Shown one piece after another: positions 136 to 4,737 of a stretch of DNA of 4,737 nucleotides. Under the pieces are notes generated by a model, which worked only from the letters and a program-made list of their open reading frames with translations, did not search any database and was not told the DNA's origin. Numbering within the stretch: position 1 is the first letter of the stretch; each line of letters begins with the position of its first letter. The DNA is from a virus (lineage: Duplodnaviria; Heunggongvirae; Uroviricota; Caudoviricetes). The DNA is taken from IMG/VR virus record IMGVR_UViG_2695420382_000015. The stretch is one strand, 5' to 3'. Position numbers and translations under genes: made by a program.

Positions 136-173
136 NNNNNNNNNNNNNNNNNNNNNNNNNNNNNNNNNNNNNN
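136..173. other. Run of 38 N (masked or unresolved bases, assembly gap)
   Basis: Literal n characters in the sequence; nothing can be read here. Confidence 0.95.
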
Positions 174-449: not shown

Positions 450-1532
450 ATGAAAAAATTAACAGTGGCAATTTCTGCTGTAGCTGCATCAGTACTGATG
501 GCGATGTCTGCTCAGGCAGCTGAAATTTATAATAAAGACAGTAACAAGCTGGATCTGTACGGGAAAGTTAATGCTAAGCACTACTTCTCCTCTAATGATG
601 CAGATGATGGTGATACTACTTATGCCCGTCTTGGCTTCAAAGGTGAAACCCAAATCAACGATCAACTGACTGGTTTCGGTCAGTGGGAATATGAATTCAA
701 AGGCAACCGCGCTGAATCTCAAGGTTCCTCCAAAGATAAAACCCGTCTTGCCTTCGCTGGCCTGAAATTCGGTGACTACGGCTCCATCGATTACGGCCGT
801 AACTACGGTGTAGCATACGACATCGGTGCGTGGACTGACGTCCTGCCAGAATTCGGTGGTGACACTTGGACTCAAACAGATGTGTTCATGACTGGTCGCA
901 CCACTGGTGTTGCAACTTATCGTAACAACGACTTCTTTGGTCTGGTTGATGGTCTGAACTTTGCTGCTCAGTATCAGGGTAAAAATGACCGCACTGACGT
1001 AACTGAAGCTAATGGTGATGGTTTCGGTTTCTCCACTACTTATGAGTATGAAGGATTCGGTGTAGGTGCAACCTATGCTAAATCTGACCGCACTAATAAT
1101 CAGGTTATCTACGGTAACAACAGCCTGAATGCATCTGGTCAAAATGCTGAAGTATGGGCAGCTGGTCTGAAATATGATGCGAACAACATCTATCTGGCTA
1201 CCACCTATTCTGAAACCCAGAACATGACTGTTTTTGGTAATAACCATATTGCCAACAAAGCACAAAACTTCGAAGTAGTTGCACAATATCAGTTCGACTT
1301 CGGTCTGCGTCCGTCCGTTGCTTACCTGCAATCTAAAGGAAAAGACTTGGGTGCGTGGGGTGATCAGGACCTGGTTGAATATATTGATGTAGGTGCAACC
1401 TATTACTTCAACAAAAATATGTCCACTTTTGTTGATTACAAAATCAACCTGATTGATAAGAGCGATTTCACGAAAGCATCTGGCGTTGCTACCGATGATA
1501 TCGTTGCTGTAGGTATGGTTTACCAGTTCTAA
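450..1532 (+). CDS. nmpC: Outer-membrane general porin of the OmpC/OmpF/PhoE family, phage-borne NmpC/Lc/OmpD-like (360 aa precursor)
   Basis: Start ATG at 450 preceded by AAGGG. Signal peptide [23 protein letters not shown] with an AQA cleavage motif, then mature [16 protein letters not shown] typical of enterobacterial porins. C-terminal region has GLRPSVAY and [14 protein letters not shown] and ends in YQF (terminal Phe, beta-barrel signature). The ORF track's 390 start adds 20 residues ahead of the signal peptide and is rejected. Identification is recalled similarity, not a search. Confidence 0.93.
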
Positions 1533-2689: not shown

Positions 2690-2976
2690 GCCTTAATAAC
2701 CCCCTCTTTCAGCCAGATAACCTGCGTTCTCGCCATACCTTCCAGCGCGCATTCTTTTGCATACTCAGCATCGACAAAATATGTGCGGCGGTCGATTTCG
2801 TCGTGACAGGCAGAACATGCAATGGTGGCAATCAGGTCTGGCGGTTTGATACCGGTACCGCACAATCCAGCCAGCCGGATATGTGCCAGTACTGACGTTT
2901 CAGGATTGCCATTACATACGCCAGGGATTCTTACCTGGCATTCCCGACCACGCGCTGCTTTTCTCAAATCAGCCAT
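2686..2976 (-). CDS. ybcO: YbcO-type (DUF1364) Cys-rich putative nuclease of the lambdoid nin region, 96 aa
   Basis: Translation [96 protein letters not shown]. Start ATG at 2976-2974 with GGAGGA 5 nt upstream (cctcc at 2981-2985 on the + strand); the ORF track's longer start at 3015 is rejected. Multiple Cys pairs suggest metal binding. Confidence 0.87.
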
Positions 2977-3139
2977 GATTCCTCCTTGCTGCCAGTCGCA
3001 ACCATTTTTTATCAACCAGGCTAGCGGTATATCCGAGCAGTGTTGGTATTTCGGATGGCTTCAGCTCAGGCTTACGCTTACGACGATTTGATACTCTGTA
3101 GATGTGCCCGTTCATGACACGAATAAGCGGTGTAGCCAT
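2969..3139 (-). CDS. ninE: NinE-family small basic protein (56 aa)
   Basis: Hand translation gives [59 protein letters not shown] at 3139-3137 shares one base with the ybcN stop (TAATG), and the 3' end overlaps the ybcO start by 8 nt. Absent from the ORF track because it is short. Confidence 0.8.
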   Translation of the reverse strand: MATPLIRVMNGHIYRVSNRRKRKPELKPSEIPTLLGYTASLVDKKWLRLAARRNHG

Positions 3140-3594
3140 TACGCCTCCTGCTTATCGCGCAGCTGCTGGTATTCACAGCTCTGCGGAATTGTCAGGTGGC
3201 AGCCGATATTCATCGCCCAGGCTTCGACTTTGCACAGGAAGATGTACATCTCGCCGGTTTCCAGCTCTGACGTATGGCGGAGGGATTGGACGGTGGTGAC
3301 CTCGCCGGACACGACATCTACACGGTCTTTGCTTTCGTAGCCGAGATAGGTGTGCTTCATCGCGTCTTTGACCCACTCAGGCGTAGCGAAGGTCTTGCCG
3401 CGGGCGATGAGATATTCGCTGATCTCCGTGTACCACATGTGGCTGAGCGCGTTCTGCGACAGGCTGCGCTTCTCGCGCCACGGCTTAACCTGCAGGCGTA
3501 AGCATTGCCCGGCATCCAGCAATGGCTGAATCTGCTGGCCGATGGCCGCGAAGTTACCGCGATGGAGTTTGATGCCGTCTACTGGCAGAGTCAT
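3139..3594 (-). CDS. ybcN: YbcN / NinB-family recombination-associated DNA-binding protein (151 aa)
   Basis: Translation MTLPVDGIKLHRGNFAAIGQQIQPLLDAGQCLRLQVKPWREKRSLSQNALSHMWYTEISEYL... The RSLSQNALSHMW core resembles the NinB (orf family) motif. ATG at 3594-3592 with GGGAGG 4-5 nt upstream. Confidence 0.88.
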   Translation of the reverse strand: MTLPVDGIKLHRGNFAAIGQQIQPLLDAGQCLRLQVKPWREKRSLSQNALSHMWYTEISEYLIARGKTFATPEWVKDAMKHTYLGYESKDRVDVVSGEVTTVQSLRHTSELETGEMYIFLCKVEAWAMNIGCHLTIPQSCEYQQLRDKQEA

Positions 3595-3686
3595 ACGGCC
3601 TCCCTAACGGAAACCGCAGAATGCAGAAAATCGCAGGTGCATTTCTGCATCTGTGACAAGGTGATGAGTTCAGATTGTGGTCGCAT
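3591..3686 (-). CDS. ylcH: Small ORF (31 aa) in the position of DLP12 ylcH, translationally coupled to ybcN
   Basis: Minus-strand ORF MRPQSELITLSQMQKCTCDFLHSAVSVREAV with AAGGGGA upstream of ATG (3686-3684) and a TGA stop overlapping the ybcN ATG (ATGA). Assignment to ylcH rests on position and size; I do not recall the reference sequence exactly. Confidence 0.5.
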   Translation of the reverse strand: MRPQSELITLSQMQKCTCDFLHSAVSVREAV

Positions 3687-3705
3687 TTAAGTCCCCTTAA
3701 ATGCG
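3682..3705 (-). promoter_or_regulatory. Hairpin (9 bp stem, 6-nt loop) enclosing the Shine-Dalgarno and start codon of the ylcH-like ORF
   Basis: Arms cgcatttaa (3682-3690) and ttaaatgcg (3697-3705) are perfect complements. On the minus-strand RNA the loop GGGGAC carries the SD and the ATG lies in the 3' arm. No U tract on either side, so it is not a classical terminator. Confidence 0.25.
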
Positions 3706-3792
3706 CAGAAGTCACCGGAGTTGTTCAGGCTCCGATGAGAGGATTATGGCGGATTGATTACGATAAATCAAAACTATCTTGAAGCCAAAACA

Positions 3793-3822
3793 GTGATCTT
3801 CGCTTTAAAAACCTTGTATACT
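3793..3822 (+). promoter_or_regulatory. Candidate sigma70-type promoter for the A+T-rich cassette (-10-like TATACT at 3817-3822; weak -35-like GTGATC at 3793-3798)
   Basis: The only reasonable -10 match upstream of the cassette's first gene on the + strand; the -35 element is poor. Purely sequence-pattern based. Confidence 0.2.
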
Positions 3823-3858
3823 TTCACCTAATCACAGCCAGAACTATGGATCTAACCA

Positions 3859-4236
3859 ATGACCAACAAAGAAAACAAAGATAAATATATTAACAAGTTC
3901 AAGAAAGAGCTTTCAAAATATATACAACCAACTGCTGGAGTGGACATTCAATTATTTAACTCTAAGGATGGTGGTGGTGTAATTAAAGCCACTTTGAATA
4001 GAAGTGGAAAAAGAAAATCATCTATTGCTGGTAATTTTACTAAATTAGGTGAGGCAATTACCTCGAGTGGGCAGAGGGTTTTTGGTGGTGATCTATCAAA
4101 TGTGAATTTTTACGGAACAAATACGATTTTTGATGGAGATACAATATTTTTAATTAAATCACCTGATTCAGAGGAGTGGTCATCACAAAAAGCTTCCAAA
4201 GACGTAGAGGGCATCGTATTTGGAGGGAAAAAATGA
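3859..4236 (+). CDS. Hypothetical protein, 125 aa, Lys/Gly-rich, predicted soluble; first gene of a two-gene A+T-rich cassette
   Basis: Uninterrupted ORF with an in-frame TAA two codons upstream of the ATG at 3859 and a weak GGA 8 nt upstream. Codon usage and composition differ strongly from the flanking phage genes. No family recognised. Stop TGA (4234-4236) overlaps the next gene's ATG. Confidence 0.55.
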   Translation: MTNKENKDKYINKFKKELSKYIQPTAGVDIQLFNSKDGGGVIKATLNRSGKRKSSIAGNFTKLGEAITSSGQRVFGGDLSNVNFYGTNTIFDGDTIFLIKSPDSEEWSSQKASKDVEGIVFGGKK

Positions 4237-4661
4237 TTAACATTACTACTAAGGATGGCACTCAAGTCAGTGGTGAAGTAAGAGATCTAGTAATTCTTCT
4301 TGAAACTGATGGAAAAACGGTGTCTGATTATTTGCAGCCAATCCCTCCCAAAAAAGATACACACTGGAGCATGATTTTCATTCCGGTAGCAATTTATATA
4401 CTACTTAATCTTGTATACATTATTGCTCACCCATTATTTCCTGAAAAATATCTAAAAACATCAACATCTATATTTCTATTCATTTCCTTCATATTAAGTG
4501 CAATAGTAGCATATTTTGTTTTCCATAAGCATAAATCTGCCACTCTATCCATATGCAGCTTAGTGTTCTTAGTGTTAATTGTAGGTGCTAACGTAGGGTT
4601 TATCAGTTACAGCGACCTAACACAAAAAGCGACGCAAAAATTAGATAGTTTGTCTAAATAA
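4233..4661 (+). CDS. Hypothetical small membrane protein, 142 aa: about 65-residue soluble N-terminal domain followed by three predicted transmembrane helices
   Basis: ATG at 4233-4235 with GGAGG at 4222-4226 (6-nt spacer), overlapping the upstream stop (ATGA). Hydrophobic segments WSMIFIPVAIYILLNLVYIIA, IFLFISFILSAIVAYFVF and ICSLVFLVLIVGANVGFISY are separated by short charged loops. The ORF track's 4176 start lacks an RBS and runs inside the upstream gene. Confidence 0.6.
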   Translation: MINITTKDGTQVSGEVRDLVILLETDGKTVSDYLQPIPPKKDTHWSMIFIPVAIYILLNLVYIIAHPLFPEKYLKTSTSIFLFISFILSAIVAYFVFHKHKSATLSICSLVFLVLIVGANVGFISYSDLTQKATQKLDSLSK

Positions 4662-4668
4662 TTATGTT

Positions 4669-4689
4669 GCCATGCGAAGTATGCATGGC
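4669..4689 (+). repeat. Inverted repeat (7 bp stem gccatgc/gcatggc, 7-nt loop) just 3' of the cassette's second gene
   Basis: Read directly; no U tract follows, so terminator function is uncertain. A second short palindrome ccatttaaaatgg lies at 4703-4715. Confidence 0.2.
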
Positions 4690-4737
4690 TGCATGTCTGC
4701 CTTCCATTTAAAATGGGCTAAGACCTATAACCCTAAA

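What the first reader, a model, noticed from the sequence alone, without database searches (positions are those of the whole stretch)
3859..4236. First cassette gene: Lys/Gly-rich 125-aa protein with no recognisable family
It has a lysine-rich N-terminus (MTNKENKDKYINKFKKELSKY) and recurring Gly motifs (KDGGGV, VFGGD, IVFGGKK), with no catalytic motif I can identify. The KDG..V motif recurs in the N-terminal domain of the downstream membrane protein (KDGGGVIKA versus KDGTQVSGEV), hinting at a shared small fold or an interaction surface.
Basis: inference. Interest (0 to 1): 0.55.

Follow-up and report, generated by a model that had tools for sequence, protein, structure and literature searches.

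The report
Conserved soluble-plus-membrane gene pair in prophage

Summary
The ORF at 3859-4236 is a real gene under strong purifying selection (dN/dS about 0.08). With the overlapping gene B (4233-4661, ATGA overlap) it forms a low-GC cassette, on the opposite strand, between replication gene P and ybcN of a DLP12-like lambdoid prophage of E. coli.

No Pfam, NCBIfam or PADLOC model matches it. PHROGs lists both genes as unknown function. An exhaustive profile search still found 111 clusters of 120-135 aa relatives in many phyla.

In every locus where the downstream DNA could be read (about 30), A is followed, usually with a 4-nt overlap, by a small 2-3-TM protein. A and B diverge together (Mantel r 0.89).

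The pair sits in prophages, small plasmids and an ICE. It also lies between type III mod and res, after hsdM-hsdS, and directly upstream of brxA-brxB. One relative has the A domain fused to an HNH nuclease.

The KDG..V resemblance between A and B is at chance level, and the profiles show no similarity.

Best reading, by inference: a new two-component defence or abortive-infection module, with A as sensor or regulator and B as membrane effector. No experiment supports this yet.

The parts
3774..4737 (+). Low-GC cassette (32-39% GC; adjoining phage genes 52-59%) inserted between the conserved region upstream of ybcN and the end of replication gene P
   Evidence: Composition profile. Sequence shared with about 2,780 E. 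coli records stops at about 3773, and the full cassette is present in only 46 of 5,426 genomes. Annotation of the same locus in strains NDM1 and 317.
3817..3822 (+). Putative -10 element TATACT of the cassette's own promoter. A weak Shine-Dalgarno (GGA) lies at 3848-3850.
   Evidence: TATAnT is conserved in the Klebsiella and Enterobacter versions of the cassette while the flanking bases diverge. The generic promoter scan did not report it. Consensus-level evidence only.
3859..4236 (+). Gene A: 125-aa soluble alpha/beta protein (WP_000182282.1, phrog_18061), member of a wide un-named family
   Evidence: AlphaFold2 model pLDDT 93.8, pTM 0.87. No hydrophobic segment. dN/dS 0.08.
4233..4661 (+). 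Gene B: 142-aa inner-membrane protein (WP_000608370.1, phrog_16940). It has an N-terminal soluble domain of about 40 aa, three predicted TM helices (47-65, 79-97, 106-124) and a short tail. Its ATG overlaps the stop of A (ATGA).
   Evidence: Hydropathy. Homology to partner proteins in other phyla: hhalign 96.6%, E 5.8e-10. dN/dS 0.09.
4664..4694 (.). Hairpin just after the stop of B, between the convergent B and P genes; probable terminator
   Evidence: Inverted repeat I17. The GCCATGCG stem is conserved in position in the Klebsiella and Enterobacter cassettes. It lacks a clear T-run on the + strand, so its function is inferred.
3139..3594 (-). ybcN (NinB-like), the left-hand phage neighbour. 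The conserved block 3595-3773 upstream of it carries the orf33/ylcH-like ORF and a 10-bp perfect inverted repeat.
   Evidence: Pfam NinB. RefSeq annotation. Phage 82 record X92588. Repeat I11.

Best explanation
Gene A and gene B form one self-contained, horizontally mobile two-gene module. Here it is carried as a 'moron' on the strand opposite to the early-right operon of a DLP12-like lambdoid prophage.

A is a cytosolic alpha/beta protein. B is a small inner-membrane protein with three predicted TM helices and an acidic N-terminal domain that probably faces the cytoplasm. The module most likely works as a conflict system of the abortive-infection or phage-defence type. In this model A is the sensor or regulator, which binds or controls the cytoplasmic N-domain of B. 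B is the effector, which damages or depolarises the inner membrane when released or activated by an incoming phage.

Shown: the two genes are real; they are translationally coupled; they are always found together and diverge together across phyla; they sit on mobile elements and inside or next to known defence operons; and A has a confident fold with no solved relative.

Inferred: physical contact between A and B, which partner senses and which kills, membrane damage as the effect, and the defence role itself.
For: (1) Obligate pairing. In about 30 loci from Proteobacteria, Bacteroidota, Cyanobacteria, Acidobacteriota, Myxococcota, Desulfobacterota and viral contigs, every A with readable downstream DNA is followed by a small 2-3-TM protein, mostly with a 4-nt overlap.

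(2) The B proteins are homologous across this range. The A and B distance matrices correlate: Mantel r 0.894, with 0 of 2,000 permutations reaching it.

(3) Context.
- The pair lies between type III mod and res in a Bacteroides genome, and directly after hsdM-hsdS in a proteobacterial MAG.
- It lies directly upstream of brxA-brxB, and about 1 kb (one unassigned ORF) downstream of an AbiJ-like gene.
- It sits in a toxin-antitoxin and IS-rich stretch.
- It sits in an ICE beside a caspase-like peptidase and DUF4238.
- It sits beside a ColE2-like rep gene and mob genes.
- It sits in several unrelated prophages.

(4) In E. coli the insertion site is a variable cargo site. It otherwise holds emrE-ybcK, a hydrolase or a HEPN gene pair.

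(5) One relative carries the A domain fused to an HNH nuclease. This is the effector-swapping pattern typical of defence systems.

(6) The N-terminal helix of A is basic (mean +3.35) and the N-domain of B is acidic (mean -2 to -2.7) across the families.

(7) Low GC, opposite strand, a conserved -10 element and a conserved hairpin fit an autonomously expressed moron.
Against: There is no experimental evidence of any kind.

No PADLOC model matches the window's A or B or five distant A-B pairs. The two accessions do not appear in the held supplements of the DefensePredictor paper.

Only 4 of the 13 genome loci whose neighbours were scanned (of 15 found) lie within about 4 kb of canonical defence genes. 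Others lie next to housekeeping genes such as valS, thiC and a CLC channel. I did not measure the background rate.

A has no recognisable sensor, enzymatic or nucleic-acid-binding domain. I could not predict a complex.

In strain CV839-06 an IS1 disrupts A while B stays intact. A is also frameshifted with B apparently intact (its C-terminus reads differently) in L023. B is therefore not an unconditionally lethal toxin held in check only by A, unless loss of A also abolishes expression of B.

The HNH fusion is a single metagenomic sequence.
Confidence: 0.5

Rival explanations
1. A is the antitoxin and B a small membrane toxin in a plain toxin-antitoxin (addiction) module. Its role is to stabilise the prophage, plasmid or ICE that carries it, with no direct role against phages.
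For: The order is small upstream gene then downstream gene, with a 4-nt overlap, as in classical type II operons. The pair is found next to a plasmid rep gene, in an ICE and in prophages. It is also found in a stretch rich in other TA genes.
Against: A lacks any antitoxin-type DNA-binding fold or known antitoxin domain. An IS1-disrupted A with intact B is tolerated in CV839-06, as is a frameshifted A with B still readable in L023. Embedding inside type I and type III R-M operons and upstream of BREX points to defence rather than pure addiction. The two roles are not mutually exclusive.
Confidence: 0.2
2. It is a superinfection-exclusion system. B sits in the inner membrane and, with A, blocks DNA entry by incoming phages without killing the cell, in the manner of P22 SieA, T4 Imm or HK97 gp15.
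For: It encodes a small inner-membrane protein from a prophage, on the strand opposite to lytic transcription. It occupies a fixed cargo site in many different lambdoid prophages.
Against: The module is equally found outside prophages, in R-M and BREX loci, plasmids and an ICE, and in phyla with very different phages and envelopes. The HNH-fused relative suggests an intracellular effector logic. There is no similarity to known Sie proteins in Pfam, PHROGs or PADLOC.
Confidence: 0.12
3. It is an accessory membrane function unrelated to genetic conflict, for example envelope stress, transport or regulation, carried as lysogenic-conversion cargo.
For: Several loci lie among housekeeping genes. 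One source labels B a 'VIT1/CCC1 family predicted Fe2+/Mn2+ transporter'. The same E. coli site also carries non-defence cargo such as emrE.
Against: The transporter label has no support from Pfam or NCBIfam. The distribution is patchy and tied to mobile elements. The pair is inserted inside restriction operons, and an HNH-fused variant exists. These are not expected for a housekeeping membrane function.
Confidence: 0.15
4. One reading: A and the N-terminal domain of B share a small fold or interaction surface marked by the KDG..V motif.
For: The strings KDGGGV (A 36-41) and KDGTQV (B 7-12) exist, over an identical 10-nt DNA stretch, CTAAGGATGG.
Against: A 4-of-6 identity occurs in 268 of 300 shuffled pairs. 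BLASTP finds no alignment. hhalign gives 1.2% probability and aligns a different region. The motif residues other than one Gly are not conserved in either wider family. The 10-nt repeat is expected about 0.7 times by chance.
Confidence: 0.03

Closest known systems
RexA/RexB of phage lambda (two-component abortive infection; comparison from general knowledge)
   Same: Both are prophage-borne two-gene operons with a soluble protein first and then a small polytopic inner-membrane protein of about 140 aa. Both are placed so as to be expressed in the lysogen. In Rex the soluble partner senses infection and the membrane partner collapses membrane potential.
   Different: No sequence relationship was found: Pfam and PADLOC gave no hits for A or B. 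A is 125 aa against 279 aa for RexA. B has three predicted TM helices plus an N-terminal soluble domain, where RexB has four. The location is between P and the nin region, not next to cI. The distribution extends far beyond phages.
Genes embedded in restriction-modification operons, such as PrrC in the EcoprrI type I locus (from general knowledge)
   Same: Members of this family are inserted inside R-M operons: mod-A-B-res in L026 and hsdM-hsdS-A-B in L024. PrrC occupies the same kind of position as a second-line abortive defence.
   Different: PrrC is a single large anticodon nuclease. A-B is a small soluble protein plus a membrane protein with no nuclease domain, apart from the single HNH-fused relative.
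Type II and type V toxin-antitoxin pairs with small membrane toxins, such as GhoS/GhoT (from general knowledge)
   Same: Small bicistronic operon, soluble protein upstream, small membrane protein downstream, carried on mobile elements.
phrog_18061 and phrog_16940 (PHROGs v4)
   Same: Full-length matches to A (E 9e-85) and B (E 2e-96). These are the same proteins, taken from prophages.
   Different: Both PHROGs are annotated 'unknown function'. They appear to cover only the close enterobacterial clade, not the wider family found.

Membership tests
Any curated protein family (Pfam-A 2025, NCBIfam 20.0) | Score above the family's gathering threshold | tested here: not met
   No Pfam or NCBIfam family for A. 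None for 78 relatives apart from single chance hits. B has only sub-threshold hits to membrane families.
Known or candidate defence systems in PADLOC-DB v2.0.0 (includes Rex, Abi, PD-T4/T7/Lambda and PDC candidates) | HMM match of either protein | tested here: not met
   No hit at E<=1 for the window's A or B. None for five distant A-B pairs, apart from one chance hit at E 0.0011 to a type I specificity subunit.
RexAB-type two-component abortive infection | Homology to RexA and RexB | tested here: not met
   No Pfam or PADLOC hit. No solved-structure relative.
RexAB-type two-component abortive infection | Operon of soluble protein plus small polytopic inner-membrane protein, carried by a prophage | tested here: met
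   A has no hydrophobic segment and B has three. ATGA overlap. Prophage context.
RexAB-type two-component abortive infection | Phage-triggered loss of membrane potential and cell death | not testable with these tools
   Needs infection assays.
Type II toxin-antitoxin module | Bicistronic, overlapping genes, upstream antitoxin and downstream toxin | tested here: met
   A 4-nt overlap in most loci.
Type II toxin-antitoxin module | Antitoxin with a DNA-binding domain (HTH, RHH, AbrB, Phd) that autoregulates the operon | tested here: not met
   No such domain by Pfam. The fold has no match to solved structures.
Type II toxin-antitoxin module | The toxin is lethal without the antitoxin | tested here: inconclusive
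   An IS1 disrupts A while B is intact in CV839-06. A is frameshifted with B still readable in L023. A polar loss of B expression cannot be excluded.
Phage 'moron' (autonomous cargo unit, in the sense of Hendrix and colleagues) | Present or absent between genes that are adjacent in related phages, with deviant base composition | tested here: met
   The cassette is in 46 of 5,426 E. coli genomes, while the flank is in about 2,780 records. Other cargo occupies the same site. GC is 32-39% against 52-59% for the adjoining phage genes.
Phage 'moron' (autonomous cargo unit, in the sense of Hendrix and colleagues) | Own promoter and terminator | tested here: inconclusive
   A conserved TATAnT and a conserved hairpin, but the generic scan did not call a promoter. 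No transcript data.
Holin or antiholin | Located in the lysis cassette with the endolysin and spanin genes | tested here: not met
   The lysis genes essD-rrrD-rzpD lie several kb away, beyond the porin gene and outside the window. A-B lies between the replication and nin modules on the opposite strand.

The most novel reading that the evidence does not exclude
A-B is a previously undescribed, widely distributed anti-phage defence system. A would be a sensor domain with a fold that has no solved relative, coupled to interchangeable effectors: a small 3-TM membrane protein in nearly all cases and an HNH nuclease in at least one. The system would ride on prophages, plasmids and ICEs, and insert into R-M and BREX operons as a second line of defence.
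Probability: 0.4. Interest if true: 0.6.

Novelty: new variant of a known kind. Interest (0 to 1): 0.45.

Why it matters
If the pair is a defence module, it adds a compact system of under 1 kb to the repertoire, built from two protein families that have no curated family, no function assigned in PHROGs and no solved structure. It occurs from Enterobacteriaceae to Bacteroides and cyanobacteria.

It would also mark the P-to-nin junction of lambdoid prophages as a defence and cargo hotspot comparable to those described for P2 and P4.

Its small size makes it easy to test and a convenient model for how a soluble sensor gates a minimal membrane effector.

If it is only an addiction module or unrelated cargo, the result is still a clean definition of a new conserved gene pair, and a correction of the motif-based inference.

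Tried and rejected
Searches that returned nothing:
- Pfam, NCBIfam and PADLOC gave nothing for the window's A or B, and PADLOC nothing for five distant pairs; Pfam and NCBIfam gave nothing for 78 relatives of A.
- Sequence searches of the PDB with three profiles found only noise.
- tblastn of A against isolated phage genomes and PLSDB plasmids found no match. The enterobacterial clade was found on chromosomes and, in 18 cases, on IMG/VR viral contigs.
- An Rfam scan of the window found no RNA family.
- Literature searches by accession, UniProt id and PHROG id, and keyword searches, found no description.
- The accessions are absent from the DefensePredictor supplements.
- Brenes & Laub 2025 (prophage defence screen) is not held. 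I could not check whether the cassette is among their systems.

Structure work:
- The first AlphaFold run, with 9 close homologues, was poor (pLDDT 58.5) and I discarded it in favour of the 78-sequence run.
- Fold searches with the good model:
  - Foldseek against the PDB: best E 0.2.
  - BFVD: best hit an uncharacterised 209-aa siphovirus protein.
  - None assigns a function.
- afdb50 was not available.

Other points:
A 13-sequence sub-alignment worked.
- P0130, a 1,251-aa cadherin-repeat protein in the profile search, is a false positive.
- I rejected the idea of integron-like or repeat-flanked cassette ends. There are no convincing terminal repeats.

Full report
**What the window is.** The 4.7-kb window is part of a DLP12-like lambdoid prophage of E. 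coli.
- An ompC/nmpC-type porin gene lies on the + strand (450-1532).
- On the - strand lie quuD (1721-2104), ylcG (2190-2330), rusA (2327-2689), ybcO (2686-2976), ninE (2969-3139) and ybcN (3139-3594).
- Two overlapping + strand genes follow: A at 3859-4236 and B at 4233-4661.
- Replication gene P (- strand) begins just past the end of the window.
This rests on the ORF list and Pfam hits and on RefSeq annotation of the same locus in strains NDM1 and 317. RefSeq calls A WP_000182282.1 and B WP_000608370.1, both 'hypothetical protein'.

**Checking the observation.**
- The gene is real. Against the Klebsiella version (76% amino-acid identity), dN is 0.155 and dS about 1.9. B behaves the same way.
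- The segment from about 3774 onward has 32-39% GC, against 52-59% for the adjoining phage genes.
- Sequence shared with about 2,780 E. coli records stops at about 3773. The whole cassette is present in only 46 of 5,426 complete genomes.
- In other DLP12-like prophages the same site holds ren-emrE-ybcK, an alpha/beta hydrolase, or a HEPN-domain gene pair next to an IS3. The pair is therefore cargo in a variable site.
- In Klebsiella and Enterobacter prophages with quite different replication and nin modules, the cassette sits at the equivalent junction. It is always on the strand opposite to early-right transcription.
- A TATAnT element (window 3817-3822) and a hairpin after B (4664-4694) are conserved among these versions while the surrounding bases differ. 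This fits an autonomous promoter-genes-terminator unit, but only at consensus level. The generic scan did not call the promoter.

**Family membership.** Pfam, NCBIfam and PADLOC give nothing for A and only sub-threshold membrane-family noise for B. PHROGs has both as full-length families of unknown function, phrog_18061 and phrog_16940. The word-indexed search found only close enterobacterial relatives: 13 for A and 17 for B, on the same contigs. The exhaustive profile search found 111 clusters at 50% identity, nearly all 120-135 aa. Their shared pattern is:
- a basic N-terminal helix (Y-I-N-N-F-R-R in most);
- a G-A-I/V strand;
- Q-x-A-F-G-G-N-L, then F-x-G-T-N, then L-I-K-D/G;
- a Trp and an Asp in the C-terminal helices.
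None of 78 members has a Pfam or NCBIfam hit. Five distant pairs have no PADLOC hit. 'No recognisable family' is therefore true of curated resources, but A is not an orphan.

**Structure.** With only the nine close homologues AlphaFold2 was unconvincing (pLDDT 58.5). With the 78-sequence alignment it gave pLDDT 93.8 and pTM 0.87. The order of elements is helix 4-19, strands 27-35, 40-47 and 53-60, helix 63-70, hairpin 87-92/95-100, then helices 104-107 and 109-124.
- Foldseek against the PDB gave a best E of 0.2.
- BFVD gave an uncharacterised 209-aa siphovirus protein.
- PDB sequence searches were empty.
No known fold family or function can be read from the structure. AFDB50 could not be searched.

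**The partner gene.** This is the most informative result. I recovered relatives at about 20-42% identity to A from:
- metagenome contigs;
- one-per-species genomes (Deltaproteobacteria, Acidobacteriota, Synechococcus, Desulfobacterota, Myxococcota, Betaproteobacteria, Bacteroides, Flavobacterium, Mariniflexile, Gemmatimonadota);
- viral contigs.
In every case where the DNA downstream of A is available, the next gene is a protein of 117-188 aa. It usually starts 4 nt before the stop of A. It has a soluble N-terminal domain of about 35-70 aa, then two or three hydrophobic helices and a short tail. The partners from other phyla are homologous to the window's B: hhalign 96.6%, E 5.8e-10 over 115 columns. 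Pairwise distances of A and of B across 23 pairs correlate with Mantel r 0.894, and none of 2,000 permutations reached this. A and B are inherited and diverge as one unit. One relative (P0104, 447 aa, seen in three samples) instead has the A domain fused through a basic linker to an HNH endonuclease domain.

**Context of the pair elsewhere.** I scanned the neighbours of 13 of the 15 species-genome loci:
- one has A-B between a type III methyltransferase and its restriction subunit, all on one strand (L026);
- one has it directly after hsdM-hsdS (L024);
- one has it directly upstream of brxA-brxB (L017);
- one has it about 1 kb, with one unassigned ORF between, downstream of an AbiJ-like gene (L020).
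Pooled neighbour scans also hit PADLOC candidates PDC-S05 and PDC-S22, type IIG enzymes, Mu-like prophage genes and transposases. Other loci place the pair:
- in a stretch with BrnA, HigB-like and Ymh genes and an IS;
- in an ICE between a caspase-like peptidase and DUF4238;
- immediately after a ColE2-like rep gene beside mobC and a relaxase gene;
- in prophages.
Several loci are among housekeeping genes (valS, thiC, a CLC channel). I did not measure a background rate, so the enrichment is suggestive rather than proven. Insertion inside restriction operons is nonetheless the position classically taken by second-line abortive systems such as PrrC (general knowledge).

KDGGGV (A 36-41) and KDGTQV (B 7-12) do exist and share a 10-nt DNA string.
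- A 6-residue window with 4 identities is found in 268 of 300 shuffled pairs.
- The 10-mer is expected about 0.7 times by chance in 1.2 kb.
- BLASTP finds no alignment. hhalign gives 1.2% probability and picks a different region.
- In the wider families only G39 of A is conserved at that site, and B has E/D-G-T/S there without the Val.
There is thus no evidence of a shared fold. The idea that the two proteins work together is supported, but by synteny, translational coupling and co-divergence, not by the motif. A weak hint of how they might meet is charge. The N-helix of A is basic across the family (mean +3.35) and the N-domain of B is acidic (mean -2.1 to -2.7).

**Most likely mechanism.** I commit to a two-component conflict module of the abortive-infection or defence type. 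A is the cytosolic sensor or regulator. B is the membrane effector, with its N-domain in the cytoplasm, three TM helices, the basic loop between TM2 and TM3 inside, and the C-tail outside. This topology is inferred from hydropathy and the lack of a signal peptide.
- For: the mobile and defence-linked distribution, the moron position in prophages, and the HNH effector swap.
- Against a simple 'antitoxin holds lethal toxin' version: an IS1 interrupts A while B remains intact in strain CV839-06, and A is frameshifted with B apparently intact in L023. Polar loss of B expression could explain both.
I put 0.5 on the defence/Abi reading, 0.2 on a pure addiction module, 0.12 on non-lethal superinfection exclusion and 0.15 on an unrelated membrane function. 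These overlap in part.

**Comparison with known systems.** Functionally the closest analogue is lambda RexA/RexB: a soluble protein, then a membrane protein of about 140 aa, expressed from a prophage. No homology is detectable. The sizes, TM number and genomic position also differ. It is not a member of any PADLOC v2 system. It is not a holin, because it lies outside the lysis cassette. It lacks the DNA-binding antitoxin that defines type II TA modules. I found no paper naming these proteins. I could not read Brenes & Laub 2025, which screened E. coli prophages for defence, so prior experimental discovery cannot be excluded.

**Verdict.** Many such candidates exist, so I rate the interest as moderate (0.45). 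I rate novelty as a new variant of a known kind: a soluble sensor plus a small membrane effector.

Noticed in passing
window 136-173: A run of 38 N (masked or unknown bases) in the AT-rich region upstream of the porin gene. Two spurious ORFs run across it.
   Followed up: no
window 450-1532 (+), hairpins at about 1546-1580 and 1668-1695: An intact ompC/nmpC-type porin gene (Porin_1, E 3.7e-153) inside the prophage, followed by two GC-rich stem-loops with T-runs. In K-12 the DLP12 copy (nmpC) is interrupted by IS5 (from memory); here it looks functional.
   Followed up: partly
window 3682-3705: A perfect 10-bp inverted repeat, CGCATTTAAG-n4-CTTAAATGCG, in the block upstream of ybcN that is conserved among lambdoid phages. 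It appears to correspond to the 'possible regulator-binding site' annotated in the phage 82 record X92588, and to lie under the 'IR4' feature of phage phi80; neither correspondence was checked position by position.
   Followed up: partly
L046 (E. coli CV839-06, NZ_CP025753.1) 860-1717: An IS1A insertion truncates gene A after about 49 codons, while gene B remains identical and intact. This is a natural knock-out, useful for testing whether A is needed to tolerate B.
   Followed up: partly
L015 and L016 (metagenome contigs), gene 246-1589: A 447-aa protein with an N-terminal A-family domain, a basic linker, an HNH endonuclease domain (PF01844, E 1.3e-12) and an unassigned C-terminal region of about 200 aa. 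This is a possible effector swap.
   Followed up: partly
L038 (E. coli UTME-10) 5015-5811: At the same prophage site, instead of A-B, there is a HEPN-domain protein plus an overlapping 133-aa hypothetical protein next to an IS3. This is another likely TA or defence pair occupying the hotspot.
   Followed up: no
L045 3665-5348: In one prophage (assembly GCA_030132385.1) the A-B cassette is adjacent to a second piece of cargo: a 377-aa protein with a weak Colicin pore-domain hit and a 174-aa protein with a weak Colicin-immunity hit. A DndB-like gene lies further along.
   Followed up: no
L026 1969-7919 and L024 884-4740: A-B homologues are inserted inside restriction-modification operons: type III mod-A-B-res in an uncultured Bacteroides, and hsdM-hsdS-A-B in a proteobacterial MAG.
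   Followed up: yes
L070 765-1118: The most divergent A relative examined (P0085) is paired with a different-looking 117-aa partner: a soluble region of about 55 aa plus two TM helices. The membrane partner itself may come in more than one family.
   Followed up: no
window 4176-4661: The longest ORF for gene B starts at GTG 4176 (161 aa), and one database entry uses that start (P0015). Conservation and the ATGA overlap show that the real start is ATG 4233 (142 aa).
   Followed up: yes
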